A stretch of 64,000 bases of DNA from Raillietiella orientalis (Eukaryota). The notes beneath the pieces are model-generated. The model made no database searches. It was not told the DNA's origin and saw only the letters and a program-made list of their open reading frames with translations. Below, piece by piece: positions 1 to 61,870 of this stretch. The first letter of the stretch is position 1, and the number at the start of each line of letters is the position of its first letter. The stretch lies in assembly GCA_036172245.1 (NCBI GenBank), contig JAYWIR010000026.1, forward strand, positions 682,001 through 746,000, written 5' to 3'. The position numbers and the translations under genes are program-made.

Positions 1-258
1 ATAGGGAAGTGCCGACGAGATCAGCGGCACACGATGTCTCACCGCCAGCCGCATTTCCAGCAGCTCTTTGCTGCCTCCATGGAATCGTGAAGGGCCTGAA
101 GAGATGCCAGGGGAGGCCAAGACGACGGGGACGCCATCTTCCTTGCAGTCCTCTTTCCTCAGGATGGCAACGAGATGACCGCATCTGGGAGATCTGCTGC
201 AGGAACTTGCCGGCATCAGGGGACGCCCCAGAGCGCACAGTGACCCCTTCTCGATCCC

Positions 259-21050: not shown

Positions 21051-21099
21051 CCTCCCAAACGAGGGATTCCTGAGGATAATCCACCGGACGCAAATTCTC

Positions 21100-26986: not shown

Positions 26987-30355
<3,369 letters not shown>

Positions 30356-35611: not shown

Positions 35612-38600
35612 ATGCCTAGAAGTTCACGTAGTAGAACAAGCACATCTCCAAGGAAAGGAACTAGGAAAAATCCTAGAAATCCTTCTCCGTGTGAGGATGA
35701 AAATCATGAATTAGAACCTTCGGAAAGTGGTCAAGTGGAACCTGTTTCTGACCAAGATAGTGAGTTTTTTGTTTATGCAATTACTATAAAGGGATAAAAT
35801 TATTATGTTCACTCATAAAAATAGTAGTAAGATGTTGATTCTTTTATTGACAGTGTTGCAAGGATGACTCATCCATATGACCAGGATCCTCACATAGAAA
35901 CTAATCCCAGGGATTAAAGTATTAGATTTGCCTTTGAGCAAAGTCTGTGTGGAAATGAGTGGTTGAAGAGATGGTTTTCCCACTTAGTTGCTGCTTCAGT
36001 TATTTGAATGAGTGAACCTAATAATTTTATTTCCAATTTGCTAGCACATTGAGACCAAGATAATTTCCTGCAAGACTTGAGAGATGGACTTGGAGACTCA
36101 ACTTGGAAAAACTTGGAAAATGTGGAAACCACTAACCTTAATTGCTAATATTGATGATACAATTGTAGGAAATAGCAACTGCACATCTGCATTGCCCAGA
36201 GCTTCCCGTAGTAAAACAAGTGCATCACCAAGAAAAGGTGTAAGAAAAAGTCCTAGGAATCCTTCTCCATGTGGTGAAGAAGAGAATCATGAAATTGATT
36301 CTTCAGAAGGTGGTCAGGTGCAAACTTCTGTTTCCGACCATGAAAGTAAGTTGCTATCTTTGCAGTGATTTCAGAGTGTAAACGTTATCAGGTTCTGTAG
36401 GCAATGAAGCCAATAGTTTTGCTTCTGATTTGCTGGCACAGGGAGATGGAGTCAAACATTTGGAAGACTTAGGCAAAAAGAAGAAAACTCCAGAACTGGA
36501 GAAAGCTTGGGAGCCTGTTCAAGAAGATTCGACTGATTTCACTGGTTGGACCTTTTTGCTTCAGTATGTCGATCAGGAGGTGAGCAGCATTATGCTGAAA
36601 TTTGGCAGTTTTTCTTTTTCTGTTTTTTATTCTTTTGCACAAAATTTTTCTTTTATTGTAGGATGATGTGGAATCAGCAGAAGAAGCTTATGATGCATTT
36701 TTAGCTCACTATCCTTACTGTTATGGGTATTGGAAAAAATTTGCTGATTACGAGAAGCGTCGTGGACTTCTGGATTCATGCGATAGAGTGAGTGTTACAT
36801 TGATTTACCTTTACCCATCACATGCCACCCCTTATTTCTGTCGCAAATGCGCATTAATTAGGATTCCAAAGTAGAGCTTTTGCAAGGTTAGGTTAGGCCT
36901 GAAAGTGAGTAAGCAAATGGAAGGTAAGCCTGCGTTTTCACCCAGTGTGCTTTAATCCAACGGGTGTTCTGTGTTCTTCCCATGCAGGCTGGGGGCATTA
37001 GGACCCCCCTGTCCAGGGTTATCAGCACCAGGTGCCAGCTGTGAAGGAGGGTAGTGTACCGGGTGTGCCCTCTGGACTAAGTTGTTCTTAGCATTCAATT
37101 GGCTGGTACTGATATACTGTATTTGTAGGTATTTGAACGTGGTTTGAAAGCAGTGCCCCTCAGTGTGGATTTATGGGTGCACTTTCTCAACTATTATATG
37201 AGTCGAGTAACAGGACAACCTGGAGCAGAAGACCACATACGCTATCAGTTTGAAAGAGCTATTGGCATCTGTGGCTTGGAATTTAGGCATGATATATCTT
37301 TTGGTGTAATTAGGTATATTGAAATGTTTTCAGATCCAGTAAACTGTGGGAATTTTACATTCGATGGGAGAATGAGTTCCATAACTTGCAGAATGTGATG
37401 TCTTTATATGACCGACTGCTTGCCATTCCTACTCAAGCTTACAACACACATTTTGAGAAGTATGTTTGTCATAGTTGATTGGTCCATACTGTGCATCCTT
37501 TTAGTTTTCAGCAGTTTGTGAATTCACATAGCCCCAAAGATATTTTGACACTAGAAGATTTTATTGCACTCCGTAAGGAATTAGGACACAAACCTACAGA
37601 TCCTAGCACAGCAGAAGAAACAAATGAACCAGAGTCTGAGGTGCCACCTGGCATGGAAAGTGAACAGAATGCTGTTGTGGTATGTGATTGGACCATCTTT
37701 TGTGATTGATTTCTTCCTGTTACATAGATCTCTGAAGAAGAGGTGAAGGCTATGAGAGATCGTATTATTGATTTGAGACGCAAAGTTCATCATGCCAATG
37801 AAATCGAAGTTAGCAAGCGCTGGAACTTCGAAGATGGAGTAAGTAGCATGTTTGTACATGTTTTTGGAGACTCTTTGTGCCCCTTTAGATTAAACGACCA
37901 TATTTTCATGTTAAACCTTTAGAAAAAGGACAGTTGAAGAACTGGCAAGACTACTTGGAATGGGAGATTATGCAGGGCCAAGAGCAGCGCATTTTAATTT
38001 TGTTCGAGCGTTGCCTCATTGCATGTGCTCTCTATGAAGACTTCTGGATGATGGTACTGCACAGAAGTAACTGCTGATTGCTAAACTGTTGTGTAGTATG
38101 TTAGGTACTTAGAAACACGTGGGCAAATGTATGCAGGATTGTTAGGGGACGTATTAGAACGAGCTTGTAAGATTCATCTTCCAAAAAAACCAAATATCCA
38201 TTTGAAATGGGCTGCTTATGAAGAAAGCAAAGGAAACCCTGCACGAGCAGCTGACATACTGCTGCGTTTAGAAAAAAATGTCCCTGGTTTGCTACAGGTC
38301 ATGTATCGACGTATCAATCTAGAACGCCGCAGGGGTAGACTCTTGGAGGCTGAGCTGCTGTATCAACGTTACTTAGATCAGCTTGCAGCTAGTGGAGAAA
38401 AGGAATACATGGCTGCCAATTTGGCCATTAAGTATTCACGGTTTTGTGCTAAAGTGAGTTGCACTATATTATAATAGTCAACTATATCATTGTTAAGGTC
38501 TTGGGAGATCGTGTTAAAGCATTAGCTGTGTTACAAGAGGCAATGGAGAGGGAAAAGGTAAAGAATCACAGAGTTGGAACAAGCTATCAAACAAGTCTTC

Positions 38601-42100: not shown

Positions 42101-44215
42101 GCCGAATGCTCTTTGGTTTCCGTCGAAAACTCGGCTGAGCATTTCTCTCCGCTTGCCGATTCGTTTGCAAAACGCCATTCCCGTGAGCGGAATGTCTCAG
42201 AGAAACCGCTGGTGACGTGGGTGATGTATGCAACTCTATCGGTAAGCAATCAAAGAAAGATCCGAAGACAATCCGAAGAAAAATCCTCAAGTATCTTGAA
42301 ATGTAAATTGGTAGTAAGCGGTTTTTTATTTTTGAGTGCCTCTATTCGAGCTTGCTTTTCGTGATTATGATTATACAAGTTGCATACCACCTGTTCTTCA
42401 TAAACATAGGACATGGACAAAGCTTGGGCTTTGGCTTTTATATATGTCACCATAAAATATTTTCCAGTAATATTTTTCAACCACGGTTCTTCCGACAAAT
42501 TGTTTCGTTATAATTTTTTCCAGATAGAATGCTTCAGCTGCAACGACCCGTGTGTTCGGTCCAAGGAATCGGAAAGATTTTATAAAGAATGAAATAGATA
42601 TAGGAGAGGCAATAAATAGTTCCAGGCTTTAACAACTTTATATGCTTTCGTGGATACATTATGCTTCCCTCAGAAAAATGAAAGTAACGCTTTAGATTGC
42701 AACTAAGTTTATGGAGACAACATATGGATTTCGGGTAAATCAAACGTTTACTGGAGACGATCTCGACTTTAGAGACTTTATCGTACGCATAAGACAGTAA
42801 TCAATCATTCAAAAGGGATTCATCAAAGTCTGTGTTTTTTTTAAAACTTGTATTGTGAACAGTATCTAATGTTTTCTGAATATTACAGGAACACTGAAAG
42901 ATTTTTTCGTTGTTTATCTAAATAGAATTATAATTATATATGTTTCTGGAAAAAAAAATAGCAAGTTTTCATAAGGAAGAAGCTAAAGCTGAGACTGCTC
43001 GTATAGTTGAACGATCTGATAGTAAGTTTAGAGTTGATCGTAAGTTTTCCATCTGATCACTGAGTATTATTTGAAGGCGGAAATTTTTCTTCTTTTAAGG
43101 AATGTATATGAGTAGGCACAATAGGATAACATTCCTTGTTTCCAGATAGGTTTTCTCATTCTTTTAATGGAGGACCTCCTTGCATCCATTTGATAAATAT
43201 ACTTATTCCGTACGTTTTATTCGAAGATTATTTAATGCTATAATACCATGTTTACTGTTTCTCCAGGCCATATGGAATTTTATGAAGAAAACTTTATATC
43301 ATTTTATTTATTTTTACTTGAGATAAAGACAGGGATTTGATCACCTTACCTTCGACTGAGCTCTTTTAGTTATCCTTGTGGCTAATCTAAAGCTGTTGTG
43401 GTGACTAATTTTCATAAGAGGAATAATAATAACACGTAAAAGAATGCATCAATTTGGAAGAACCTAAATGCTTTAGACTACTTTTCGAAACTCATTTTCG
43501 TGTACATATGTCCGCATAGGAGATAGATAAGCCTGGTGCATGTTCATATCTGTTTTCTGAGGCAACAACAAGCCATAAGAAAAATCATGAAAACATGTAG
43601 ATTTTTGCCTTAATTACATGTAGTTCGAGTAATAGGGAGTACAATTTAAACGAGATACAAGTTTCCAAGAACAAATTGAGTTTATAATTAAAAAAAATAC
43701 ATATTTCTCATTTTTATGAGAAGGTACAACTCGTTCATGGTTACATGTGAAAAAAGAAAAATTCTGCGCTTATCTTTTTGATTTTCAACTCCAATTTAGA
43801 AGTATAAGAAATGGAACTAAATAGATTTTCTGTAGAAAGAAGTACCCTCTTTTGAGGATTGCAGGATGTGCATCGATACGCAGTCATGATCAGAAACAGT
43901 ATGAAAATAAATCGTGAAAGCCATGAAATACATATTTCACAGGAGTAAAACTCAAAATCAAAACCTAAATCATTAGAGACGCAATCCGACGAAATTTCTA
44001 CAAATCATTATTTAAACAGTTTAAAAATATCTGAAGTATCTAAAGTAGTTTGTAATACTGATAGGAAATGTTGCTTTCCGACGTGTAACGGGATGCCCAA
44101 GTGCTCTTTCACTTCTAAGCATGCTGTATTTATTGCTCAGTAGGGAGTTTGCAACACACATGCTACAGTAAAGGAATAAACGAAACTGTATCTCACAGTT
44201 ATTCATTTCGTTACA

Positions 44216-44475
44216 ATTAATTCTTTAAAAGTGCTATACAAAAGTGGTCGAGGAGGGTCAGTTGAGGTAAGGAACGTTCATCATCACCTTTTTGTAATTT
44301 AATTTTTTAGGGGTTACCACCAGGGATACCTTCTCAGACCCTCAAAGCAGATCCTACCTCGATAAAAGGGGATTTCATTTTAAGTGTTCCTGAGAAACCA
44401 CCTTGGACTTGTTCAGGCAGTTACTACGTCAAATGCCTTCCAAATATTCATGTGACAGTGAATTCAATCTCCTAG
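44216..44475 (+). CDS. Non-AUG upstream ORF (uCC-like, PPW motif) in the ODC leader; exons 44216-44266 and 44311-44475
   Basis: A 44-nt GT-AG intron (44267-44310) joins an open frame INSLKVLYKSGRGGSVE|GLPPGIPSQTLKADPTSIKGDFILSVPEKPPWTCSG...NSIS*. The ATT at 44216 has A at -3. There is no ATG between 44199 and the ODC ATG. Confidence 0.7.
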
Positions 44476-46215
44476 ATACCCCCGTGGATCCAGTCGCATT
44501 GATTCGGGAGATCATAAGCCGGAAGGTATTCTTAGAGTTGCTGACTTCTGTAAGCACATGGTCTCGTTTCATTGCATTTCTTCATGCCTGTAGTTAGTAT
44601 GCCTTGGGTTTTACATGTAGAATGAACATTCACGAGAGAGAAAAAAAAAAAACGAAATTGAAAGATAGAAGTAGCGTCAGAATATGCCAAGTTAAATTTT
44701 GCTAATGTTGATGTTTCATGCATACAGACCTAGTCTTTTTTGTTGTGATGTTGAAATTTCTTTATCAAACTTTTTATGACATAGGTTTATGAACAAGCAT
44801 TTTACATTGTGAATGTGGATGATATTGTTTTTAAACATTTGCAATGGAAATCTGTTTTGCCAAGAGTGGAACCTTTTTATGGTAGGTATTTTGTATTGAG
44901 TAAAATTACTAACTCTTATCATTAAGCTGTAAAATGCAATAATGTGGATTCAATTCTGAAGGCTCTGAATATCTTGGGTGTGAACTATGATTGTGCATCT
45001 AAGGTCTGTGCATTCTTGTGCATCCTTATGCTTAACTCTTGAAATATCCTGCATAGGGAGAAATTGAGCAACTACTTTCAATGGGAGTGAAACCGGATCG
45101 CATAATTTATGCTAATCCTTGCAAAACTGCTTCTTCCATCAGTTATGCTGCATCAGCAGGAATTGCACTCATGACATTTGATTGCGAAGAGGAATTGCAT
45201 AAGATTAAAAGATTACATGCTCATGCGAAGTATATATTTTACTTTTAGTTTTTCCGGACATAACTTAGTCAACAGTTTTTTGGATTAGATTGGTTCTTCG
45301 GATCCGTTGTGATGCAAAAAATTGTCGAGTTCAACTGGGATTAAAATTTGGAGCCGATCCTTCTCATGCATTTCATCTGTTATCAGTTGCCAAAGAGCTG
45401 AAGCTGAATGTTGTGGGTGTCAGTTTCCATGTGGGATCTGACTGTTTTGATATCACAGCCCACTCACAAGCCATTATCGCATCCCGTAAAGTGTTTGATC
45501 TAGCAAAGCAGCTGGGGTTTGTGTTTGATTTGCTGGACATCGGAGGTGGTTTTCCTGGAGTCGAAAACGGATCAGTTTCATTTTTAGAAGTACATTCTGA
45601 GTTGTTTTATGTTAAACTCTTGTTGTAGATTGCAGCTCGTATTAACAGCAGTCTTCAGCTTCATTTTCCAGAAAATGATATCCGAATCATAGCTGAACCT
45701 GGCCGCTATTATGTAACTTCTGCATTCACTCTTGCAACTACCATCATTGGCACCAAAAAGGTAAGTGACTTTGATGCAAGGTTGTGTTACTATTTGGACT
45801 TCAGACTGCTGATGGTAATATGTACTATATTGACGATGGTATATATGGAAGTTTCAACTGCTTATTATATGATTGTGGTCATGTGAAGCCCAATGTTCTA
45901 ACTTCAACAGACGAAGATGTATTTCTCAGTAGCGTTTGGGGACCAACATGCGATTCACTAGATGTCATCTGCCAGAATGTTATGTTACCTGAACTGTCAA
46001 TTGGCAGTTGGCTGTATTGGAATCACATGGGTGCTTACACTGTGGTTGCAGGATCTACTTTTAATGGCTTTCCTAAGCCAGGCCTTATTACTGTTGTATC
46101 CAATGACATATGGCATTTTATGCATGGATGTCCCAGAAGTCCTACTTGTCATGCTGCGAAAGTTTACTGCAATCAACATAATTCGAGGCAGTCCATTGCA
46201 GATGCAGTAGTGTAG
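44433..46215 (+). CDS. ODC1: Ornithine decarboxylase; exons 44433-44525, 44785-44881, 44927-45003, 45057-45229, 45289-45589, 45629-45760, 45805-46215
   Basis: PFYAVKCN (PLP lysine), DCASK, IIYANPCK, KFGA, FHVGS, LDIGGGFPG, AEPGRY, DGIYGSFNC, WGPTCDSLD (catalytic Cys), MGAYT. The catalytic residues are intact, so this is ODC rather than an antizyme inhibitor. AATAAA at 46222. Confidence 0.96.
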
Positions 46216-47899
46216 CTCTGCAATAAAGCTGCTTCACTTTACTTATTGACATTTCATTTTCGTTATTCAATGCAGTATGGAAATCTAGTTTGTGCATGCG
46301 CTGATTGTGCATTTGGAAGTCATGCTGATCGAGTCATCGAAGTCGTGGTTTGGGATTGGTCTTCATGTGCATGGTGTACGAGACCGTGTTGCTGTTATGT
46401 TTGTTTAAGGGTGTCCCGTTCGCACGGCCAACTGCCGCGGTGTATTTATGACCTGGGCCGATGATTCTATTTTAATGTCACCGTTGCCTGGTGCACATGC
46501 CGTTTCAGGAGGGGTTTTCAAGGTGATTTTGTCCCAAACATCAATTTCGGGAAAAAGTTCCAACTGGTAAGGGAAAGTGAAAGCTTTGGCGGAGTGAAAG
46601 CGTTTGGGAGGGGAGCGGGGATTTTTTTTTTTCCACATTTTTCTTGCATCGTAAACAAGTTTATGCGTTTCGTTGTGATCATTATGTGCCCAGGACCTCT
46701 TCCAGATCTCCGTTGCACCATACAAAGCGTTCATGTAATCGAGCAGCCCGCCGATGCCTTGCGGGCGCAAGAAGAAGCACCCTATTCAGCAGCTCAACGG
46801 GCAGTGGCAACAAATGAGCGGATTCCGCATCTATGTTAGCATTCGGCGTTTTCGGTTACGATCTCACGCGATCGTTGCACGAGGTGGCAGAAGAAAGCCC
46901 ATCTGTGCTCCTGGACCCGTGCCGTGCTGCCGGAGCATCCGTTCGTCCCGGTGCGTGGAAGGTGCGTGGGAATCCCCAAAGAGCACACAGCGAGGGAGTG
47001 AGTGGATGAGAGAGTGTGCTCCGAAGTGTCCCAACGGATGCTCGGGCAAAGTCCCTACAAACACCCTCCGTAACACAATACTCCGTAATTTCGAGCGGGG
47101 CGATGTCTGGCACTCGCTGGCACGTTAACGTTCTCGGCCTGGGCTAGTTGACGGTGCCAGTGCTGACCTCATTGCCCGTCCCGGCTTCCTTTTCCCGATT
47201 CTAAACCGTACTCTGCAAGCTTTATCAAGAAATGTGCCAACTCAGCTGCCATGGCTGCTGACATTGAATTCTCGAGATGTCACTTTCACCTTCGTTTCCC
47301 CATTTGCCACAAACAAATGCAGCCAGGAATTCCATTCACGCTGGTTATCTACTCACTGTTTAAACAGTTGTAAACAGCTCCCTTCCACGCTCTCAGGCTG
47401 AACTTTTGCTTCGTTTCTTAAGACCGAATTGTTCAGTGGGCGATTCAGCTCAATGCCTTTCAGGGTCAAACTTTTCTTCTCTTCAAAAGTTTTCCCACTT
47501 TTCGAACATTCTGGAAAATGAACTCTGGGTGGTCCTCCAATCTCTGATTGCTTCGCTGTACCAATTGAAAAAGAGAGAGAGCGAATCAAGTGTTCAGCAA
47601 CCAGCCTATGGAGAGTTAGGTGGGAGAGCTTGGCTGCTGCGTTTCACTCTTGTAAATTCTCACTGATTAACTTCCAGAAAGAGAAAAACTCTGGGATCTT
47701 TCCACTTCGTGGTACCCCATAGTGTCCTATCACCTGCCTCGTAATCCGTTCGACGCTCGTTTTTCTTTCTCCGCTTTCAAACCTGCTTGCGAGTTCCTTT
47801 ATCCTACGGAGGGAACTGTGAACTGGTCCACGGGATCAGGATTCGTAAAATCCCGTATAGCAGGGGGGAGTCCCCAAGCCGCAACACCACCAGGGCGTC

Positions 47900-50470
47900 C
47901 TCTGCATCCTTGTAAGGATGCCGGTAAGTTCCTGTTTTATGGTTTCCAGAGGAGACCATCTTGACGCTATCCTCGTGACGAGGACAGCAGAATAGATGGC
48001 GTCCCTGTCGTTCTGGCCTCCTCTGGCGTTGCTCCATGCGGCCACGGTCCCTCCGCTTGGCAGCAAAGTGTTGCTGGGGATGCTGTCGACATGAGGGCGT
48101 CGCGCAGGAAGAGGCGATTTAAAACGTCTCTGGCGCTGCCGCCGGGGGTTCCAAGGGTCGCGGCGAAGCGTCTTCAAAAGGGTCGGAGGGCAACACAGTC
48201 CACTAGGAGGTGTGGGAGGGATTCCCGCTCCCGGCACGTTGCACAATTTAGGTCCACACACACTCCGTTTCCAATGATGCCGGCGGATGTTGAACGGGAG
48301 AACCCAATGAGCAGTAGAAGCAGCGCTGCCTCCTGCCACTTTAAGGGGAAGGTGCGAGTGTTCATGAGCAAAGGGAGCCAATGCAGGTCTTCCTCCGGAA
48401 TACCTAGTAGCACGTACTAGCGTAAAAGTTCATGTGGTCGAGCAAGCGGGTTCGCAAGACGTCGGTTGTCTGGTTCTTCGTCCACTCGCCCAGTTTTTTT
48501 CTCCTTCAGAAGATTTCCACAGTAAGTTCCCATCTAGTCGCAAGGCTGCTGCCCATGTGCTTCCTAAGGGAGGGCAGCACGGCGGCGAGGGAGCTTCTGC
48601 TTGCCTACACACTCTCTTCACGGGATCTTCCAGGGTCTCCCGAAGCGTGCAGCTGTTGCGCGCGTGCAGGAAACGTCGCACCTGTTCCGCACTTACCTCC
48701 TGGATTCTCGCCTCGCCCATGTACGGACGGATTCCTGCAATTAGGCACTACCTTTTGCAGGGCGGCACGAGACCCATCGAACATTCTTTCTGGACAGTGT
48801 GGCCACTTGCCGCAAGTGCAGTCCGCGGTGGATGAGGCTGCGTGGACGGCGGGCAAGGAAGGACACGAGTCTCACGCAGCCGGTGGCTTGCTGGACGAGA
48901 AGGCGTTCAGGATGGAACCAGGATCGCCACTGGTCGAAATCGGAAACCCCCGGAGGTTCCGTCGAGTAACCGGGATCGGAAGTCGACCCTCCGGAGTCCT
49001 TCAGGATTTTCCTTTGGTTGCACAAATGAAGCCGTTACCAGGGAGCTGGTGGACCAACACCTCTCCGTCGCTGTTCCCTTCTTAAGCGATCCTTTCGAGA
49101 AAATTGGGAAGCGTCCCTTCGGGGTTTCCTTCAGAGGAGGAAACCAAAAGCGGATCCTTTCCGGGGGGTCCTTTCGTAGACATCCATGGAGAGGGTTCCC
49201 TTCGGGGTTTTCCTCCCAAGAGGAACAGACCCCTTCCTCCGTAGCTTTTCTGGATTCATAGGGTGGTCCCTGAGGGGTCACCCCTTGACTTGAGGAGTAA
49301 CACTCACCCTCGGACGGCGTGAGCAGTGTTAAAAATCTTGTTGAGCCCCCAAGGAGGGGCGAACAGTTCTTCAGCAGTCAACGAACCCCCAAAAATAAGA
49401 AAATTCGAAAAACCAAAAAAGGAGCTGGAAGAAAGCAGCGGGAAACAGAAGATCCCTGAAGTGTTGAAGTGTTGAACCCTGAAGAACCCATCCTCGCCTT
49501 CATGTGACAGGAGTTGGCGCTGCTGGCGGTGCACAGGGGAATCCCGTGCAAAGCGCGCCTCCACCACTGGACACGGGGGGGCAGAGTGGACGTTCCGTGC
49601 GGCAGATGAGGGAAGAAGGAGACCCTTCCGCATCTGCTGTTGGACTGTGCTGCCCTCCGACCCCTTTGGGATCGCATCCCGACAGCTATAGGTTCCCCAT
49701 CAGACGACCCCAGGGACATTTCCAAATATCTCTCCGTGCGTGCCTCTCCGCCGCGTCCCTCCAGCAGATCTCCGCTGTCCCGTTCACAGAACCACGACGG
49801 CATCGAACGCCAAAAGAAGAGGGCCCAAATGACAGAGACGCCAAGCACTGGGTGTGGATCTTCCTGGAGACCACGTCGAGATGGTCCCACCTGGGTGCCA
49901 TCCAGAACGAACCTGCCAACATACTGAACAGGATGCAGAGGACACCTGGCAGCGTACTGTGATCCCCTCCCTCCTCGCTTTGTGTGTTTATTTTTTTTTG
50001 TTTTTGTTTTCCCCATGCTGCAGAAGCGGACCTCGCCGGTCTGTGCACCGCTCTTCGGCAGGTTCACTACGCGCGGTAGAACCAACGGGCGCGCATCCTT
50101 CCGCGATCTGTCCGTGACAGCGCCGACGTCGGCGGTGCTCCGACGCGGCGCCCAACGGAAATGGCGATTGGCTCGCTGTGGCGGGTTCTCCGTCCAGGAG
50201 GTGTCCTCAACCAGTGGGTCTCCGGGATGAAAGCGCCTCGTTCCCCTCGTTTGATATGTGAAAGCCCAGGATAGGATGATCGTGAAAAAGAGGAAGGCAA
50301 GGTGGTGATCCAGTAGGCGGAGGTACTCCATAAGGTCGTTTGGTTTCCCCTGACGACTCCCGGCATCTTCGTCGTTCGCTTGGACATCTCTACTTATCGG
50401 CGACGTAACGACTGGGTCCAAGCCCCTGCTCCAAGTAGAAGGTGACCACGACTTCCTTCGATGTTCTTCC
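47900..50470 (-). mobile_element. Decayed L1/Tx1-like element: ORF1-like remnant, low-complexity spacer, ORF2 C-terminal CCHC finger; EN/RT not visible
   Basis: CATCRERESLPHLLVDCVALRPF (C-x2-C-x7-H-x4-C) at ~48245-48177. LASLSFGPSSFGVR...EICWRD...HARRD..KCP at ~49850-49705. 49080-49320 is homologous to 18770-19110. Confidence 0.65.
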
Positions 50471-51283
50471 ATCGGCGGACGTGGCTACGATGGACAAGGG
50501 GGTGGAGGGGTCCAGTACATGGCCCAAAGGCTTCATTCTCTGAGGGCTCCTTATTTTAAGCCATGGAGCCCTGGCCACACGAATGCATTTTCATCACTTC
50601 ACGTAATAAATGCCCCGGGGCATAACTGGGCGATAATCAGCGCCTTCATGAAAAGTATCTGTCGGCGGGCAATCTATACTCGCATGCAGCATCGAATCAT
50701 TATGGTCCGTCATCGCAGGTGGTCGTCGTCGTCCACGGTGCAACGCCAACCACCTGCGATGCGGAAGCTCCCGGCGAGGCTCTCGTACCTCAATCGTGGC
50801 CAGCAATGGCACCGAAAAATGAACCACAAAATTGTGGCAGCCCTGTTTTAAGTGGTCCACCCTCTAAACTGCACCTTCAGGAACGTCCTTAGCATACGAA
50901 ATATACAAAATTTTTTGTAAACTACATTTCGCACTGCATGCAATTTTTTCTGGCGTGGGAATGGTTCCTCCCGCTCCCTTAATGTGGAGTCCATCCTTCC
51001 CATTGCCAGCCCATCATCTAACGATAAACCCCCGCGTTACTTGCTTCCTTGAAATAACTGTGGCGAAATTCCCCGGTGTGGTCCGGACCGAACAGCCTGA
51101 ACATCCGCTCCGTCTACGAGGCGACGAGGCCGGCAGGCGCCTGCCAAACTCTCACGGTGTTTGGAGACCAGCGATTCATACCTTTCCTCTTCTCATGAGC
51201 TCTAAGAATACGGACCATCTCTTGCTGATGGCAAGAGACGATCGGCCCGAAAACTACCAGTAAGGATAACCTGTGTGTATTTC

Positions 51284-54200
51284 TCAGTTTTCTTTTAGTG
51301 AATATATCCAAGGATTCGATGAAACTATGTTCGTGAAGAACGTGTACGGGGAAAAACAGCTGGCATCCCAGGAACTCAAACCTACCAGATACAGTTTGCC
51401 CTTGGTTCCCCGGCAGACCAGAGGTTCTCCTTTCTGACACTGGATCGAGGTCGACATGACAGGGGGGCAAAACCCGCCAACTCACCCGACATCCTTCCCT
51501 GTTCAGCCTGGTGCAGAGCAGCTCTGGGTCCAGCTTGAAATCGGGTCCCAGGACCGACTGCTGCAATCCCTTCTGGCAAGTTTCGTGCGTGTCAAGGCTT
51601 ATTTTATCGAAACCAGATTCATTGTCTGCAAGAGTAGTTGTTGGTTTTTTTTCTTTTGGTTTCAAGTGCTCTTCGCTTTTAACATACTTCTGAAGACTCC
51701 TTCCTTCTTCCACACGTAACAGTTTGGTTCTCCCAGTTCATCCGGCTCGTCCATCAGGCAGAGAAAGGAGCGAGGCCAGGATCCGGCTATCCTGAGAATG
51801 GCGAGATCATTCCGACGATAATCGAGAGAAAATTTCGGGTGCTGGTGGATGATTTCCAATGGAAACAGCTGCTTCGTGGACGTCAAGACCTCCAGATGGT
51901 CGATGGAAGAGATTCCCCTGAAAGTTCCACAGTTTTCGTCAAGGCGACAACGGAATTTTTCCCGCCGGGTGATGAAAGCGTTACTGGGGGGATCTGATTA
52001 AATAGGCTCTGGCTAATAGCCGTGTTCCAGAATTAGTAGCCGAGCACGTCCGGAGCAACTGGTTGGATCTTCAACGATAGGGAGCGATATTCCGAACCGC
52101 AACGGAAGTTACAGTTGACTCTAACCACCGTGATGAAAAATACGAGCAGGTTCTTGTGGAAGTGAGAGTGGTCCACAAGAGGAGAGTAATCATTCGAAAA
52201 GTCACCAGGAAGAGAGAAACTGGGAGAAGGGAAACGTCCCAGGAATTCCCGAGGCTCCATAAGAATCACGTGCACTTCAGACCCGAAAGTGCCGAAGTGA
52301 AGTTGCCCTATCACACAGGGTTGCCTCCGCTCGGGGAAAGACTAAGGTATGAGGGACCGAAAAAAAAAAAAAAAAAAAAGGAGAGAGGTAGAAAACAGGA
52401 CGGGAAATGGAGCTGGTCTGTCTTTACCGATTTTCCTTCAGGCAGTGAGCGGCTGTGACCAGGTGCTTGCTCGAGATGAACGTCGCCTCGCAGAGGTAAG
52501 TCCTGTTGCGCAGCAGCACAGCCTGGGTGTCCCTCAGCTCGTTTTCCACGCCGTCTGAGCAACGGTGCTTCTCGAGGGGGCAGCACACTCCCAGGGTCCT
52601 GGAATTAACTTCGCAGGGCTGTCGCCGCGCCGCGCGCCGTCCTGGAACTCCGAATCTCTGTGACTCACCATGTGTAAGCCAGGGGAATTGCAGGTGAATT
52701 CCGGGACGCATCTGCTGGACTGATCGCAATTCCTGGGGAACAGGATGCCTCCGGAGCTGCTCCTGTTGTCCTCCGGGGAGTGGAAGAACGTCGCTGTGTT
52801 CATCAGCACGCTTGACAAGTCAACCGGAGGGCTTGTGCTGCTGGTGTCGGGAACGTGAGAAGATCCCGCGACTATCCCGACGGCGGTCGTCCTTTTGTAT
52901 TCCTCCTCGGACGCTCCATGAAACTGCAAGTCCTGGACGGCGGGGCCTGGCTTCTTTTCAAAGAAAGACAGGATTTGAGATCCTCGTTTGGGCAGCTCGC
53001 TGGCGTCCACCGCTATGGTTCGGTTCCCGTGCACAATTTTCACTTGAGCGCCGGTCCAGAACTCTTTCGAGAGGTTGTAGACCCCCTCCACGATTATCGT
53101 TCCGGAGGCGAGGCCTCCGGTCCCTCCTGGGTGGTCCTTGGAGGTCACCGGACGGAACATCAGCACGCTCCCGTTCGGGTATATCTCCCGCAGGTCTTTC
53201 AGCTGCGGGAGCGGTCCCTCGTTCGAGTAGTACAAGACGAAGAGCGCATCCTGCTGCTGCGCGCCTTCCTTGCTCACGAAGTCGAACGTGTAGCTGCTCG
53301 GCGTGTACTTCAGGAAACCCACCGCCATGACCGGAGGGGGGGGCGCGCCAAAGGTCGCATCCGCGGCAGCGACGGGCACCAGCATGAACTCCAGCTTCTT
53401 GGTGGGCTTCTTCGGAGCGGGGGTCCCGCTGAGATTCCCGAACCACTTGCCTTCCTGCGCGAGGAAGAAGCCCAGCAGGTCGGAGATCTGGTTGCCGACC
53501 AGCAGCTCTTCGATCTCGGCTCTCTGGACGGAGGCCAAGTGACCGCTCATGTAGGACGGAGCGGCCGAAGGAATCTCGTACTTCGCCGTGTGCGTCCAGT
53601 ATTGGGTCGCCCTCTGGGCGCCGCCCTGCTGGAAGAAATCGACCAGTATGGAGGGTATGTTCTGCAGGCCCGAGTGCTTCTGGAAGAAATCGACGAGGAT
53701 GGTGGGAGTCTGCTGGGGAACCAGGTTTCCCTGAACAAAGTCCATGGTTATGGGAGGAACTTCATAGATCGAGTATCCTGTCAGGTTTTGGATCTGGTGT
53801 AGCACGTCCATGGCTTCTTGGACGCTCGGCGAAATCTGGATCGGGGTCAGCTGCTGCCATGTGTAGCCGGAAGAGGAACCGGGCTGACTGTGCGCGGCCG
53901 CGGCGTCGCCGCCGCCACCTTGCAACGAACCAGAAGAGATTTCTTGGAGCGAAACCAACTTGGACAGAGTCCCCTGCTGGAACAACCAGACGTCCTCCAG
54001 CGAATGTCCGCTGAAGCCGCCGCCCGTGACGACGATGGAGCTTTCCGGCAGCTGGGACAAAAATTCAGATGCGTCTTTCCCTCTCAGGAAGTCATCTCGA
54101 AGCAGCACCAGGAGGGTGCCATTTGGGTACAGCCTCTCCAGATCGGAGCAGCTGCTTCTCGAGCCATCGGTGGCGTGCTGATAATGGACGCGCATGAGCG

Positions 54201-57200
54201 TCCCACTGTCCCAGCGGCTGTCCTCTTTGGCTATCTGCATCGAGTACCCTCCTCGTTCGTTGCAGGTCACGTAGATGACGGCTCCCAGGGCAGGTGCGAA
54301 CAAGGTGCTGGTCAAGGTGTAAGGAATTATCCAATATTTCACGCTTCTGGCTATAGTTTCCGTCAGAGGCTGCCTTTGGTTTTGGTAGCTGGCGACGGGC
54401 AGCTGGATGTGGATGCTGGTGACCTGAGGCTTGATCGTCCAAGCCGTAGAGATCGGAGGGGCCGCGCTGGCAGGCTGCCAGAGCGGCATCGGAGGCGGAG
54501 GGTGGCCGCCGCTCACGTTTGGCTTCCCGGAAAAGAGCGAAAGCCAGTACTGGTTTCCCAGCTCGCTCGTGTTGACGACCGACGCTGGAGAGTCCGCGCT
54601 CTGGCCGGAGACAGGATGCAGGGAAGCGGGGTGCTTCGCGCCGAAATTCGAGTCCCAAGGGGAGGGGTTCTGTTCCCAGTAGGAGAAGCTCACCCCTCCT
54701 TCCGCCTTCACCGAAGAGTTGTGTAACACGACGGAATGGTTCGAGGAAGAGCTTCCTCCGCCATGGGGAGGAGCCAGCGGGAAGAACTTCGCCCAGCTGG
54801 ATCCTGGCTGGGGGCGGGACGCGTCGCTGCTTCCCCAGGAGGCGAAAATGATATTCTGGTTCTTGAGGGTCTGAGATGTGCCTGTATCCCCGTCGGGGCT
54901 GCCGCTCTCCCCCTCTGCGCCGGACGACGGCTCCGTCGACGTCTGGGGCCCGCTTTCGCGCCCGGGGCCGTTCTGCTTGGTCCAGTGCTTGGCGAATGCC
55001 TCCCACTTGAGGTCGTTCTTCCGAGACGGCCAGGACGAAGCGGCCGTTGCGACAAGCGCCGACTGAAGGTCCAGCGGCTTCCCGTTCTCCAGGTAGAAAG
55101 ACAGGAACGGCACGTAGGATTTCCGGGATTGCGTGTCGAGAACAAGGACGATGCTGCTGTTCGCGAACGGCAGCGACTCTGACGGGGCGAAGTCCTTCAA
55201 CGAAGCGAAGGAGAGTTCCAGGAGCGTCCCGTTGGCCACATAGGATTCCAGCGGCGTTGGCTCCCTGCCGGCGCCGGGTCTTTCGCCGACGTAGTAGACG
55301 ATGGCCTTCGTGCCGTTGGTCACGGCGTCGCTGTTCTTCCTGATCTCGACCTGGTAACCGTCCTCGGAGCGCTTCAGATAAATCGCTATGGAAGGCATCG
55401 GCCAGTAGAGCTGACCCTGGCCCGCGCACGGGGTTAGCCAGTAGAAATAGCTGTTCTCGCTCTGAAGCAGCTCCAGATCCCTCTCGAAGGCGGTCGAGCG
55501 ACCCGCCCCTTCGGACGCCGCTAGCGTGAAGGAGTAGATGACGACCGGGAACTGGTCGGGCCCCTCACTGAAGGGAGAGGAGGACTGCCTGTCGACGTCC
55601 CAGCCGGGATAGGACGTCAGGGGAGCTTGCTGAGCCCCGCCGACGCCGGGGGACTCGTAGGAGCTCACGGTCGCTTCTCCCAGGGGCGTGGCTCCGAGAG
55701 CCTGCATGTAGAAGACACCGAACTTCTTCGGGTCCCCTCTGCCCGCGGTGATGAGGATGCTGCCAGGGACCGCCGCCGCTTCCAGTTCTTCCCTTGCTAC
55801 TTCCCGGTAGACGAAGAACTCGACGTCAAGCAGCTTGTCGACGATCGGGTAGTCTCGGCTCGCCTGGAACCCACGGGACAGCTGGAACACGTCCCCGTTC
55901 CTGATCTTTCCCGGCAGGCGGGGGATCATCAGGGTGAACCAGTCTTCCGCCTTGCCGACCAGCACGCTGATGACGCGCTGTCTCCGGTCGTCGCGGATCC
56001 TCTGGTAGTCGGGCGCGGGGCTCAGTAGGCCGACGATGGGCTGCTCCTTGGGAGACACGCCCGCGTGGGCGTCTCTCGAGCGGGGCCAGAAGTCGAAGAC
56101 GATGGAGAAATGGTCAAAGGCGCTATTCGAAGGTACCCCTGATTCGGGGGCGCAGTACGTTCTGGAAACCACCTCACGAGGCTCCTTCTGCTCCGAAGGA
56201 ACCTTTCGGAGCTGCCCCAAGTGGTAGGTCTTGTCCGAGAACACCACGAACATTTCCAGGAGGTTGCCGTCGCCGGCGGCATCGTCTTTCCCTCCCACCA
56301 CCAGTGTTCCGGACGCGAAGGGAGGCTTCCTGTCAAGGCCGCCCTGCCAGCTCGTCAGGCCTATCCCGCTTCGAACGTCAATGTCAGGCGACTGCGGTTC
56401 CTCCCTGTTGTACCGGAAGATGGTGCCCTCCGGATAGATGGTTTCCAAGCCGAAGGCGTTCTTCACCGCCAGAGGGGCGTCGCGCAAGTGGTGGACCATC
56501 ACGAACCCCTCTCCGCGCTCGTCGAGATCGTACTTGTTGAGGTGAACCCTGCACTTCCCGCTCTGGCAACGCACGTTCCAGGAACCCGACAGGAAGGCGG
56601 GACCGATTCGATCCAGGTTCGCGTCCTTCCCCTTCGGAGAGTAAAACGGCCAGCTCGCCTTCCTGTCGAGCGACCAGGAATCGTCCTTCCTCATCGGAGT
56701 CAACCAATAGAGGACTTTTCCCGTTTTTCCGTCGAGAGACCAGGAACCGCTGTGCGGGTCCATCTTCACCAGGCTTCTACGGAGCTGCTGCTCCGGAACC
56801 AGTTCGAAGCTGTCGGTCTTCCGCAAGGGCGCCCTCAGGGGCTGACACTTCCCCACCTCTTCCACCGCCTCGTACCTCTTGCTTTCGGAACGGTTCTTGG
56901 AGCTCCAGTCGAACTCCTCTCCGACGAGTTTCCTGCTGATCTTGCCGAGGAGCAGCGTTCCTTCGGGAACGACCAGGTGCATGTCCAGCTCGTAGTCCAG
57001 GGTCCCCGCGTCGGTTTGGGCTTCGGTGAGGATGAGCGTTCCCGACGAGAGCAGGGTGTTCCGAGGGACCGTGCGGTGCAGGGTGACCACGGTGCCGCTG
57101 CGCAGGTAGCGAGCGATGTTGCTCTGTGACGCGAACTCCAGCACTTCCTCCGATGGGTATAAGGCAAGCCTGCTGCCTTCCTCCCAGTGGTCGGTGGTGC

Positions 57201-57537
57201 GGATCAGGTGAACGGAGAAGCCGCTGTCCGCTCTTCTGATCAGGACGTGGCCGTCCAGGCGCGGCTGCCCCTCCGACGCTCTCTCGTCGATCGTAAACAG
57301 GTACTTCGTCTTTCCGGGAAACTTCTGCGAGGCGACAAAGTTGCCTGGGAGGGATGCGCTCGGGCGGAAGACGTAGTTGGCGTGCTCCCGCGCGGTGTCC
57401 TGCGACGACGAACTGTGGTGGTTTTGCAGCGAGGGAACCTGTTTTTCCAGCGAGAAAAGAACTTCCTGCCACGAGTGTTTTCCCGACGAGCGCCCTTGGC
57501 AGCACACGCTCTTTCCCGGTCCGGGACGTGGGCACAG
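51284..57537 (-). CDS. Giant clip-domain serine-protease homolog (non-catalytic, masquerade/CLIPA-like) with six N-terminal repeats; exons 52669-57537, 52428-52618, 51688-51917, 51486-51625, 51284-51439; 5' end unresolved
   Basis: The spliced product contains clip CDQSSRCVPEFTC...|PCEVNSRTLGVCCP, then a trypsin fold: YLCEATFISSKHLVTAAHC (His), HPKF...NDLAIL (Asp), CQKGEPLVC in place of GDSGGPLVC, LVGLSSW, FTNI...WI*. Intron phases match, and the 1759-codon ORF is strongly GC3-biased. Confidence 0.85.
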
Positions 57538-58074
57538 CTGGAATGGGAAATCAGGATGGAATGCAAACTGCCATCTGGCAAGGCTTGCTCGAGGCTTCGG
57601 CGAGGCGAAGAACGGAAGCGCCGCAAATCTCCCCGAGAGCACGGCTCTGTCCTTTCCCCAGCGATCCGTTGCCGCGCCCCCTCTCTCACCCTCCTTGGAG
57701 CCGAACGGCTGCCAATCTAGGACTGGGGGACCAGCCCTACTCAATCTGAGGCCCTCCAAGCTTCCGTATGCAGCCCCACATGCGTAGGAATCGGCCCTAC
57801 TGATTCTCACCAAGATGATGTATTAACCTGTTAAGCGGACAATTCTCACAATTTCAAGAAATGCCACCCGTGGGTGCATAATTAAAAAACTGTCGAAAAC
57901 GGATATACACGTCAAACGCAAAGCATATGTATCTATCAGCAAATGTCAATTTCAACGGAAAAAAAAAATATATTCATAAAAGGTTTCGTTATTGTAAAGA
58001 GAACTTCATATATGAGGAAAATGAGAAGAAAAAAAAACTCCTAAGGAATTGGTTATCTTATGCCCAGATAGGTC

Positions 58075-58386
58075 ATGAGAAAGTTCGAGAACGATGAGAG
58101 TCGCTGTCTCTTATTGAGGACAGTTCTGACCACTGTTCTGTGTTTTTGCCAGTGTGCGCCCGGAAGTTCCAAATGTGTACAGATCGCACCGGGCAAAAAA
58201 TTCCATTCCCAAACGATTCCTTCTGGAAGGCATACGTACCGCTTCCGAGGCAGTCTCCCTCTCCATGGCAACGAGGATCCATCGACACGAATGTCTTGTT
58301 CTAGAATATGTAGGAAAATCCCCATCTACGTTGGATACTTTCCCTGCAAGGGACTGCCAGGATATTGTTCTCAATATCAATATTGA
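58075..58386 (+). pseudogene. Possible secreted PAN/apple-like small protein or fragment
   Basis: Hydrophobic N-terminus (CLLLRTVLTTVLCFCQC) and SCSRICRKIPIYVGY...CSQY cysteine spacing. One expected Cys is missing and the downstream frame is broken. Confidence 0.25.
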
Positions 58387-61400: not shown

Positions 61401-61870
61401 CAGGTGATCCCTCAGACGCGCACGCTCTTGCGCATAGGGTGCCCACTACTCTTCGCTACTCTGAACTTCAAATCGCTGCGCTTCTTTTCTTTCTTTCTTT
61501 CCTTTTTGCGTGTGCGTTCTCTGAGGTGTTGCTGTCGCGTGCGTGTCTTTTTGCGCGTGCAATTCTCTGAACTGAAATTGCAAACTCGGATGACTCGTGG
61601 AACCCAAACATCCCGTGGGAAAGACAGGAGCTCCCGCAGAGAGGGGGGGCAGCAACGCTTCCCTATGGTTGCGCTTCGCCTCTCCGTTTCTCTATGGGAA
61701 CGTTGGCCCTCTCATCCACAGGGGGCGCCCGTCTCGACTGAAGCAACGCGCGTAACCTTGACGCCGCTGCTCTAATAATAGATCTACTCTGATAATAGAA
61801 CCACCTCCGGGCTGAAAAGAATCCGCGCGCAACAATGCGCTGTCGCGAGAAGGCGGAGCCACGCCACGCC

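What the first reader, a model, noticed from the sequence alone, without database searches (positions are those of the whole stretch)
44216..44475. Hidden AUU-initiated, spliced PPW uORF overlapping the ODC start: candidate polyamine sensor
Seen: the ODC leader has no ATG from 44199 to 44432, yet one frame stays open across a 44-nt intron (44267-44310). From ATT 44216 (acaATTa) it encodes 71 aa with PPG at codons 20-22 and Pro-Pro-Trp at codons 47-49 (44398-44406). It runs out of frame over the ODC ATG (44433) and stops at 44473-44475. The ORF track misses it. Established: ODC/AZIN1 homologs carry a near-cognate-initiated upstream conserved coding region whose PPW causes an eIF5A- and polyamine-dependent stall; ribosome queuing then boosts AUU initiation and represses the main ORF. 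From memory, the vertebrate AZIN1 PPW also sits at codons 47-49 after AUU, which should be verified. Inference: this is a functional uCC on a catalytically intact ODC. It differs from vertebrates in lacking the PS-stop ending and instead overlapping the main AUG, which would preclude reinitiation and give a tighter switch.
Basis: partly seen in the sequence, partly recalled or inferred. Interest (0 to 1): 0.9.

Follow-up and report, generated by a model that had tools for sequence, protein, structure and literature searches.

The report
Divergent polyamine-sensor uORF overlapping ODC start
The leader of this animal ornithine decarboxylase gene carries a much-altered copy of a known start-codon-less upstream reading frame that senses polyamines through a Pro-Pro-Trp stall, unusual because it has lost its own stop and runs over the enzyme's start codon.

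Summary
With a 44-nt GT-AG intron removed, ATT 44216 to TAG 44473-75 reads 71 codons, with PPW at codons 47-49. It overlaps the ODC ATG (44433) out of frame.

I fetched 80 ODC mRNA-like contigs. 37 carry the known animal uCC. 32 of them have an ATT with A at -3, PPW starting at codon 41-45, and a stop 48-237 nt before the main ATG. None of the 37 overlaps the main ATG.

The window's frame is a derived homologue of this element. It keeps the N-terminal block and the PE-PPW block. It lacks the central block of about 17 codons, and it has no stop after W-x-x-S.

Peptide similarity begins at ATA 44326, in exon 2, not at ATT 44216. The 22 residues before it score no better than shuffles. An in-frame ATT at family-like spacing arises by chance in 4.9% of local sequence. 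No RNA data could be obtained, so the start codon and the splice remain open.

Verdict: a new variant of a known kind. It probably still represses ODC when polyamines are high, but it could be a decaying relic.

The parts
44163..44432 (+). ATG-free stretch upstream of the ODC start; presumed 5' leader (includes the predicted intron)
   Evidence: last ATG at 44160, next at 44433. 25 of 20,230 local 270-nt windows are ATG-free; 0.5% of shuffles are.
44216..44218 (+). In frame with the PPW frame only if 44267-44310 is spliced out; PPW would then be codons 47-49.
   Evidence: Context and spacing are family-like, but no peptide similarity follows it, and the chance of such an ATT is 4.9%.
44231..44233 (+). 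GTG (context AAA GTG C), a second in-frame near-cognate codon in the putative exon 1. PPW would be codons 42-44.
   Evidence: Read. The model comparison gives z 0.90.
44267..44310 (+). Predicted 44-nt GT-AG intron (GAG|GTAAGG ... TTTAATTTTTTAG|G); unverified
   Evidence: The size matches five of the six ODC introns (39-59 nt). No RNA run could be listed.
44326..44328 (+). ATA (context GGG ATA C), positional homologue of the family's conserved AUU start. PPW is codons 25-27 from here.
   Evidence: Relative L072 also has ATA (gacATAc) at the corresponding Ile.
44326..44379 (+). N-terminal block of the uCC homologue (IPSQTLKADPTSIKGDFI), aligning with the family's IP....QGGF block
   Evidence: 0 of 2000 shuffles reach the mean score and 5 of 2000 the maximum. 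One search gives the MAFFT placement.
44380..44415 (+). C-terminal block (LSVPEKPPWTCS), aligning with the family's L-D-x-x-P-E-P-P-W-D-P-S. The family's central S-P-E-G-x-C-L-Y block is absent between the two blocks.
44398..44406 (+). Pro-Pro-Trp codons (CCA CCT TGG), the presumed polyamine/eIF5A-sensitive stall site, 27-35 nt upstream of the ODC ATG
   Evidence: The role of PPW comes from passages in PMC8705083, PMC11058473 and PMC11550727.
44416..44475 (+). 19-codon extension beyond the position of the family's stop, plus TAG 44473-75. It overlaps the ODC ORF by 43 nt in another frame.
   Evidence: None of the 37 animal-type relatives overlaps, and tails after W are 3-9 codons.
44433..46215 (+). 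ODC coding region, 427 aa. Coding exon parts: 44433-44525, 44785-44881, 44927-45003, 45057-45229, 45289-45589, 45629-45760, 45805-46215 (stop TAG 46213-15).
   Evidence: gene model; PF02784, PF00278; homologues; invariant residues kept

Best explanation

Shown:
- The leader is free of AUG.
- One frame encodes the family's N-terminal block, starting at ATA 44326, and its P-E-x-P-P-W block.
- About 17 central codons are missing.
- The stop that normally follows W-x-x-S is absent, so the frame runs 22 codons past W and ends 43 nt inside the ODC ORF.

Inferred mechanism, by homology with AZIN1:
1. Most scanning ribosomes pass the weak near-cognate start and make ODC.
2. The few that start upstream either read through over the ODC AUG, and are lost for ODC, or stall at PPW (44398-44406) when polyamines are high and eIF5A is impaired.
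3. The stalled ribosome sits about 15 nt short of the ODC AUG with its leading edge and blocks scanning.
4. The queue behind it raises initiation at the near-cognate codon, reinforcing repression.

Which codon starts it is unresolved. Candidates are AUA 44326, or AUU 44216 / GUG 44231 through the predicted intron.
For: Context: the frame lies directly before an ODC ORF that keeps 93 of 105 invariant columns and all 12 catalytic or cofactor positions checked.

Family picture from 80 fetched ODC mRNA-like contigs:
- 37 carry an animal-type PPW frame.
- 32 of them have ATT with A at -3 and the first P at codon 41-45.
- 30 of those 32 have no ATG between the ATT and the main ATG.

Window: PPW lies in an ATG-free leader.

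Similarity:
- The N-terminal block aligns to the relatives better than all 2000 shuffles by mean score.
- The ATA model gives z 3.83, 2 of 1000 shuffles as good.
- Local similarity of ATA..PPWTCS is reached by 9 of 1000 shuffles.
- MAFFT places the two blocks on the family's N- and C-terminal blocks.
- Ser at +3 after W is kept, as in the family's W-D-P-S.

Precedents among relatives: tails of 5, 8 and 9 codons; endings other than PS (DPC, DPE, DHH, TQC, ESS); ATA at the start position in L072; an AUG start in L016.

Mechanism: passages on the AZIN1 PPW stall and queuing.
Against: - A profile of 26 relatives scores the frame at only 5.1 bits. It ranks 7th of 2365 six-frame segments of the window, so a blind scan would not find it.
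- With Ile and PPW held fixed, 104 of 2000 shuffles score as well.
- Three family features are altered together: AUA instead of AUU at the homologous codon, a lost central block, and a lost stop. That is also what decay would look like.
- AUA is a weak near-cognate start (recalled, not checked here).
- Spacing from AUA to PPW is 25 codons, against 41-45 in 32 relatives and 47 in mouse AZIN1.
- No close relative exists in the data (best ODC identity 54%), so conservation of the frame, PPW and the overlap could not be tested.
- There is no evidence on the transcript, the splice or translation.
Confidence: 0.6

Rival explanations
1. The functional uORF starts at AUU 44216, is assembled by splicing out 44267-44310, and is 71 codons long with PPW at codons 47-49, the AZIN1 spacing.
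For: - The context ACA ATT A is family-like. All 32 relatives have A at -3, 4 read ACAATTC, and 4 have A at +4.
- The spacing of 47 equals mouse AZIN1 (passage) and lies just beyond the 41-45 of the relatives.
- The donor and acceptor are strong, and the 44-nt size matches the gene's other introns.
- The ATG-free run extends upstream to 44163.
- A first exon would give about 70-120 nt before ATA. The relatives have a median of about 90 nt before their ATT.
Against: - The 22 residues it adds show no similarity to the family (234 of 1000 shuffles; anchored test 264 of 2000).
- The whole-length model gives z 1.39, against 3.83 for ATA.
- The chance of such an ATT is 4.9%, and of any near-cognate codon 17.8%.
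- 7 of 32 relatives have an equally long open frame upstream of their true start.
- GTG 44231 fits the spacing equally well.
- There is no RNA evidence for the junction or the TSS.
Confidence: 0.3
2. A decaying relic. The lineage inherited a canonical uCC that has lost its AUU, its central block and its stop, and no longer regulates ODC. PPW and the open frame persist by chance or recent ancestry.
For: - Three family features are changed at once.
- In the arthropod-like part of the ODC tree the element is labile. The motif search and my reading of the three-frame translations show no PPW frame in L068, L070 and L073. L033 appears to have PPG where its sister L036 has PPW. Tails vary in L036, L050, L052 and L056.
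- The profile score is weak.
Against: - PPW and its P-E-x flank are intact.
- The leader is still free of ATG (about 0.5% by chance).
- From ATA to the stop, 49 codons stay open in AT-rich sequence. By my estimate from base composition, not a tool result, that has a chance of about 3-4%.
- Even without the family's stop, any translation of this frame necessarily removes ribosomes from the ODC AUG, and a PPW stall 27-35 nt before the AUG would still block scanning.
Confidence: 0.25
3. Pure coincidence. The PPW frame is unrelated to the uCC family and the leader is ordinary.
For: The profile HMM alone is not significant in the window-wide scan. The peptide search of 1.84 billion representatives gave only 4 weak hits to long unrelated proteins.
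Against: - PPW-coding 9-mers occur about once per 10-20 kb per strand here, yet one lies in the last 35 nt of an ATG-free leader of the very gene family that carries PPW uCCs.
- 37 of 80 fetched relatives carry one.
- The N-block similarity test is independent of PPW and gave 0 of 2000 shuffles.
Confidence: 0.05

Closest known systems
Animal uCC of ODC homologues, as in invertebrate ODC mRNAs (described in Ivanov, Loughran & Atkins 2008, not held here; summarised in PMC2811004, passages read)
   Same: - Position in the leader of an ODC mRNA.
- No AUG.
- An Ile-Pro start block, a K/Q-G-G/D-F block, and P-E-x-P-P-W with Ser three residues after W.
- Presumably the same polyamine logic.
   Different: - The homologous start codon is ATA, not ATT. 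G rather than A is at -3.
- About 17 central codons (the S-P-E-G-x-C-L-Y block) are missing.
- There is no stop after W-x-x-S. The tail is 22 codons, against 3-9 in 32 relatives.
- The frame overlaps the main ATG by 43 nt, whereas all 37 animal-type relatives end 48-237 nt upstream.
Vertebrate AZIN1 uCC (AUU start, PPW at amino acids 47-49, polyamine/eIF5A-dependent stall and ribosome queuing; Ivanov et al. 2018, not held; passages in bioRxiv 10.1101/710061, PMC11058473, PMC9082881, PMC8705083)
   Same: - A PPW stall motif in a non-AUG upstream frame of an ODC-family mRNA.
- If ATT 44216 and the splice are real, the AUU-to-PPW spacing is identical.
   Different: - The main ORF here is an apparently active ODC, not an antizyme inhibitor.
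- The ending is not PS-stop.
- The frame overlaps the main start, so reinitiation after the uORF cannot yield ODC.
- PMC9082881 gives the AUU as 'about 30 codons upstream' of PPW, which disagrees with the 47-49 of the other passage. I could not read the primary paper.
Overlapping uORFs of other polyamine-pathway mRNAs (vertebrate SSAT uORF2 and spermine synthase uORF; PMC2811004, passages)
   Same: An upstream frame that ends inside the main ORF, in another frame, on a polyamine-pathway mRNA. Ribosomes that translate it cannot use the main AUG.
   Different: Those are AUG-initiated. In the passages read they are not reported to carry PPW, and they are not related in sequence.

Membership tests
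Animal ODC/AZIN1 uCC | Lies in the 5' leader of an mRNA for an ODC homologue | tested here: met
   The frame ends 43 nt inside an ODC ORF. Pfam PF02784 and PF00278 hit exons, and 93 of 105 invariant columns are kept. That this stretch is transcribed as leader is inferred.
Animal ODC/AZIN1 uCC | No AUG in the frame or leader; initiation at a near-cognate codon, usually AUU with A at -3 | tested here: inconclusive
   No ATG in 44163-44432. The codon homologous to the family's ATT is ATA with G at -3. ATT 44216 has family-like context but depends on an unverified splice and shows no peptide homology. 32 of the 37 animal-type relatives have the ATT.
Animal ODC/AZIN1 uCC | Pro-Pro-Trp near the C-terminus, preceded by an acidic or Pro-Glu context | tested here: met
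   P-E-K-P-P-W at 44389-44406. Relatives have [AP]-E-P-P-W, and P-K-P-P-W in L020.
Animal ODC/AZIN1 uCC | Stop 3 codons after Trp, typically D-P-S-stop ('ends with proline-serine in six phyla', PMC2811004) | tested here: not met
   W is followed by 22 codons. Ser at +3 is kept, but GGC stands where the stop would be. Among the 32 relatives with the conserved ATT, 26 have a 3-codon tail, 4 have 5, one has 8 and one has 9. Several end in PC, PE, HH, QC or SS.
Animal ODC/AZIN1 uCC | Start-to-PPW spacing of about 41-47 codons | tested here: inconclusive
   25 from ATA 44326. 47 from ATT 44216 and 42 from GTG 44231 if spliced. Relatives are 41-45 and mouse AZIN1 is 47. Shorter open frames occur in L009 (31 codons) and L016 (AUG at 34).
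Animal ODC/AZIN1 uCC | Separate from the main ORF (ends upstream of the main AUG) | tested here: not met
   It overlaps the ODC ORF by 43 nt. All 37 animal-type relatives end 48-237 nt upstream. Among all 43 loci with any PPW frame, only L055 abuts or overlaps its ATG (by 4 nt). L055 sits in another clade, has a 51-nt leader, and its homology is unknown.
Animal ODC/AZIN1 uCC | Peptide similarity to other members beyond PPW | tested here: inconclusive
   Anchored N-block test: 0 of 2000 shuffles. Global ATA model: 2 of 1000. But the profile HMM gives 5.1 bits and rank 7 of 2365 in the window, and with Ile and PPW fixed 104 of 2000 shuffles score as well.
Animal ODC/AZIN1 uCC | Conservation of frame and motif in closely related species | not testable with these tools
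   The best ODC identity among the fetched loci is 54%, and 43-60% (mostly about 50-55%) among database proteins. No own genome is held.
Animal ODC/AZIN1 uCC | Polyamine- and eIF5A-dependent stall at PPW that represses the main ORF | not testable with these tools
   This needs ribosome profiling or reporters. No RNA run could be listed.

The most novel reading that the evidence does not exclude
The element is not a relic but a re-engineered switch. The lineage shortened the uCC by 16-20 codons (48-60 nt, about two ribosome footprints), which would keep a queued ribosome in register with the start codon. It also removed the stop, so every ribosome that enters the frame is carried over the ODC AUG, giving stall-plus-bypass control with no reinitiation. 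A weak AUA in exon 2 and stronger AUU/GUG codons in a spliced first exon may serve as a graded series of entry points. The second PPW, placed in the same frame directly after the stop (44479-44487, followed by a stop 4 codons later), could add a read-through-dependent block inside the ODC ORF.
Probability: 0.2. Interest if true: 0.65.

Novelty: new variant of a known kind. Interest (0 to 1): 0.42.

Why it matters
The uCC of ODC-family mRNAs is the best-understood case in which a small metabolite controls start-codon choice through a stalled ribosome and a queue.

A natural variant differs in three ways. It keeps PPW but has no nearby stop. Its start-to-stall distance is very different. It overlaps the main start codon. 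It therefore separates features that are always linked in the canonical element:
- Is termination close to PPW needed?
- Does the start have to lie a fixed number of ribosome lengths upstream?
- Does reinitiation contribute to basal ODC synthesis?

The comparative set assembled here gives a baseline against which such variants can be judged. It comprises 37 animal-type uCCs, 32 of them with ATT and A at -3, spacing 41-45 and a stop 48-237 nt upstream of the main ATG.

If the element is only a relic, it documents how this sensor decays in a lineage where it is evidently labile.

Tried and rejected
- RNA evidence: the look-up of sequencing runs on window:43500-46500, kind rna. No RNA holder was listed.
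- Own genome: none is held, so paralogues could not be sought.
- Earlier findings: three look-ups by place, words and sequence returned nothing.
- Peptide search of the exon-2 frame against 1.84 billion representatives: 4 hits at E 1e-4 to 6e-4, short stretches of long proteins, taken as noise.
- Blind profile scan of the window with an HMM built from 26 relatives: the leader frame ranks 7th of 2365 at 5.1 bits. The top hit (9547-9804, 8.7 bits, E 0.25) is not significant. No second, canonical uCC lies upstream in the window.
- RNA structure of 44311-44480: z 0.27, nothing special.
- Rfam on the whole window: no match.
- The sigma-70 promoter/terminator scan is irrelevant to a eukaryote and is ignored.
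- Considered and set aside as unsupported: a trans-splice acceptor at 44310, a -1 frameshift at the Trp codon into the ODC frame, and TAG reassignment. On the frameshift: the ODC frame is open from 44394, and the -1 codon after W is GAC = Asp, as in the family's P-P-W-D. It would raise ODC when polyamines are high, which is the wrong direction. On TAG reassignment: the ODC ORF itself ends at TAG 46213-15, with AATAAA 6 nt after it.
- Primary papers: Ivanov 2008 (PNAS) and Ivanov 2018 (Mol Cell) are not held under DOI, PMC id or PubMed id. Their content is used only through passages in other papers. Their supplements, which list uCCs by phylum, could bear on whether overlapping or arthropod variants are already recorded.
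- Literature searches for an overlapping or arthropod uCC variant (listings only) showed none.

Full report
OBSERVATION.
- ATT 44216-18 sits in the context acaATTa and opens a frame.
- With the 44-nt stretch 44267-44310 removed (GAG|GTAAGG ... TTTAATTTTTTAG|G), the frame runs 71 codons to TAG 44473-75.
- PPG is at codons 20-22 and PPW at codons 47-49 (44398-44406).
- The frame differs from the ODC frame and overlaps the ODC ATG (44433) by 43 nt.
- The last ATG upstream is at 44160, so 44163-44432 is free of ATG.
- Without splicing, the frame is closed by TAG 44308-10, five codons before ATA 44326.

THE GENE.
- An ODC gene model built from GT-AG junctions gives 427 aa in seven coding exon parts, 44433-46215. 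Its introns are 259, 45, 53, 59, 39 and 44 nt.
- Exons hit Pfam PF02784 and PF00278.
- The protein keeps 93 of 105 columns that are invariant in 12 animal ODCs. These include K69, D88, H198, G236-238, E275, R278, D331, C368, D369 and Y397 in P0002 numbering. That these positions are the catalytic and cofactor residues is recalled, not tested.
- The best database ODCs were 43-60% identical (mostly about 50-55%) over the C-terminal query.
- A FastTree of 98 rows was built from 76 of the 80 loci, 21 named proteins and the window. The four loci whose ODC is under 400 aa were left out.
- In that tree the window's ODC sits on a long branch beside an arthropod-like group, with SH-like support 94.
- The neighbouring Tip60/KAT5 exon is 82% identical to mite proteins and about 80% to other chelicerate and crustacean proteins.
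- The organism is therefore an arthropod-like animal with no close relative in the data.
- Other genes in the window are Tip60/KAT5 (- strand, about 27.2-28.5 kb) and PRP39 (+ strand, about 36.4-38.5 kb).
- No recognisable gene lies between 39 and 44 kb.

IS IT MORE THAN CHANCE?
- The ATG-free run is unusual. 25 of 20,230 270-nt windows in the AT-rich + strand are ATG-free, and 0.5% of mononucleotide shuffles are.
- PPW-coding 9-mers number 10 on the + strand of the whole window. Three lie in the AT-rich 20.5 kb, two of them at this locus.
- The upstream extension is not unusual. An in-frame, stop-free ATT with a purine at -3 at 41-47 codons before PPW arises in 4.9% of local sequence placed before the junction (1523 of 31,020). 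Any of seven near-cognate codons does so in 17.8%.

RELATIVES. One scan of metagenome contigs with an alignment of 12 animal ODCs returned 80 loci. Most are 1.5-3 kb mRNA-like contigs with 200-500 nt of leader.
- 43 loci have at least one PPW frame at or before the main ATG.
- 37 are of the animal type, with [AP]-E-P-P-W-[DE]-x-x or close variants.
- 32 of those have an in-frame ATT with the first Pro at codon 41-45. All 32 have A at -3. The commonest context is AAA ATT C (14 loci), and 4 have ACA ATT C.
- The tail after Trp is 3 codons in 26 of the 32, 5 in four, 8 in one and 9 in one.
- The stop lies 48-237 nt upstream of the main ATG in all 32.
- 30 of the 32 have no ATG between the ATT and the main ATG.
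- The other five animal-type loci lack the ATT. L002 is cut by the contig end. L017 starts at the contig end. L009 has a frame open for only 31 codons. L016 has an AUG at 34. L072 has ATA, as gacATAc, at the Ile that aligns with the family's start, 35 codons before the first Pro, and an ATC at 39.
- None of the 37 overlaps its main ATG.
- The only abutting case among the 43 is L055 (PPWNQ-stop, overlapping the ATG by 4 nt). It has a 51-nt leader, sits in another clade, and its relationship is unknown.
- On the ODC tree the canonical form covers mollusc-, nemertean-, amphioxus- and other lophotrochozoan-like branches.
- In the arthropod-like group it is labile. L019 is canonical. L036, L052, L050 and L056 have longer tails. 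L033 seems to have PPG. L068, L070 and L073 have none.

WHERE THE WINDOW'S FRAME FITS. A profile of 26 distinct relatives aligns the exon-2 peptide in two pieces. IPSQTLKAD-PTSIKGDF falls on profile positions 1-24. LSVPEKPPWT falls on positions 36-45.
- MAFFT places it the same way, with one long gap over the family's central S-P-E-G-x-C-L-Y block.
- The Ile of the first block is ATA 44326 (context GGG ATA C), followed by Pro-Ser-Gln, as in L008 and L010.

Tests of this placement:
- Alignments anchored at the start, against the first 30 residues of 26 relatives: the ATA peptide beats all 2000 shuffles by mean score, and 5 of 2000 reach its maximum. The ATT-exon-1 peptide does not stand out (264 and 577 of 2000).
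- Global alignment from start to PPW: ATA z 3.83 (2 of 1000), spliced ATT z 1.39 (88 of 1000), spliced GTG 44231 z 0.90 (170 of 1000).
- The 22 residues before ATA are no better than shuffles (234 of 1000).

Against over-reading:
- The profile score is only 5.1 bits and ranks 7th of 2365 six-frame segments of the window.
- With Ile and PPW held fixed, 104 of 2000 shuffles score as well.
- I chose the Ile after seeing the motif. There are four Ile candidates, so the shuffle counts should be read with a factor of about four.
- Homology therefore rests on position (the last 110 nt before an ODC AUG), PPW, the absence of ATG and the anchored similarity together. It does not rest on the profile alone.

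WHAT HAS CHANGED. Relative to the family:
1. The codon at the start position is ATA, with G at -3.
2. About 17 central codons are missing, so PPW is at codons 25-27 from ATA.
3. Trp is followed by Thr-Cys-Ser, with the family's Ser kept at +3. GGC then stands where the stop would be, and 19 more codons carry the frame to TAG 44473-75, inside the ODC ORF.

- a family-like context;
- a well-formed intron of the gene's usual size.

A first exon would also give a typical distance from the cap to the start. The relatives have a median of about 90 nt. But 7 of 32 relatives have 22 or more open codons upstream of their conserved ATT, so an open frame upstream of the start says little. The start codon is unresolved.

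MECHANISM (inferred). Passages in PMC2811004, PMC9082881, PMC11550727, PMC8705083 and PMC11058473 describe the AZIN1 system as follows.
- Most scanning ribosomes skip the AUU.
- At high polyamine levels eIF5A is impaired.
- The few ribosomes in the uCC then stall at PPW.
- Following ribosomes queue, and the queue promotes initiation at the AUU, which shuts off the main ORF.

Applied here, a ribosome stalled with PPW in its decoding centre would cover roughly 44389-44418. That estimate is an inference from an approximately 30-nt footprint. It places the ribosome just short of the ODC AUG, where it would block scanning.

The new element is that ribosomes which pass PPW are carried over the AUG and terminate 43 nt inside the ORF. 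Entry into the frame is therefore always lost for ODC, and reinitiation cannot rescue it.

The shortening by 16-20 codons (48-60 nt) is about two ribosome footprints. That would keep a queue in register with ATA. This is speculation.

ALTERNATIVES.
- A relic that no longer works remains a serious alternative (0.25). Three family features are changed at once, and the element is labile in this part of the tree.
- Against a relic: PPW is intact, the leader remains free of ATG, and the frame remains open.
- Coincidence is unlikely (0.05).

NOT OBTAINABLE.
- No RNA run could be listed.
- No genome is held.
- No close relatives were found.
- The two primary papers are not held, and their supplements may list arthropod or overlapping variants.
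- Four literature searches, seen as listings only, showed no report of an overlapping uCC variant.

VERDICT. This is a new variant of a known regulatory element. Its start codon, splice and function are open.

Noticed in passing
window 44476-44502 (+): Directly after the uORF stop TAG 44473-75, the same frame reads ATA CCC CCG TGG ATC CAG TCG CAT TGA (Ile-Pro-Pro-Trp-Ile-Gln-Ser-His-stop). This is a second PPW, 27 codons after the first, again with Ser at +3, and with a stop 4 codons after Trp. It lies inside the ODC ORF, over Thr-Pro-Val-Asp. Only 3 PPW-coding 9-mers occur in 20.5 kb of AT-rich + strand, and two are these. Coincidence or a read-through target; unexplained.
   Followed up: partly
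window 44391-44435 (+): The ODC frame is open upstream of the ATG back to TGA 44391-93 and holds an in-frame TTG at 44403, inside CCT TGG of the PPW. The -1 codon at the Trp is GAC (Asp), as in the family's P-P-W-D. An N-terminally extended ODC or a -1 shift is conceivable, but I found no support for either.
   Followed up: no
window 46222-46227 (+): AATAAA lies 6 nt after the ODC stop TAG 46213-15, suggesting a very short 3' UTR. The frame after the TAG stays open to 46464 but does not look like protein.
   Followed up: no
window 1-2000, 10000-12000, 20000-24000, 48000-64000: GC-rich blocks (0.52-0.63, with one dip to 0.44 at 58-60 kb) alternate with AT-rich gene-bearing sequence (0.34-0.41). 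They hold very long stop-free frames, for example 52534-57822 on the - strand (1762 codons), with no Pfam match. The nature of these blocks was not examined; they may be repeats or mobile elements.
   Followed up: partly
window 27246-28488 (-) and 36385-38474 (+): Exons of a Tip60/KAT5 histone acetyltransferase (MOZ_SAS, zf-MYST, Tudor-knot) and of a PRP39 splicing factor (HAT repeats).
   Followed up: partly
L018:1-271; L033:1-285; L072:192-342; L016:173-290: Variants of the uCC among the relatives. L018 (brachiopod-like ODC) has ...NFNAELEWEPS-stop, with Leu-Glu-Trp in place of Pro-Pro-Trp. L033 seems to have PPG where its sister L036 has PPW. L072 has ATA rather than ATT at the start position. 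L016 begins with AUG 34 codons before PPW.
   Followed up: partly
L048, L065, L075 leaders: A different, longer PPW frame (...ITALRN...SPPWLP-x-x-x-GLV-stop) lies several hundred nt upstream of the ODC ATG in three loci that group away from animals. It may be the fungal type of uCC mentioned in PMC2811004.
   Followed up: no
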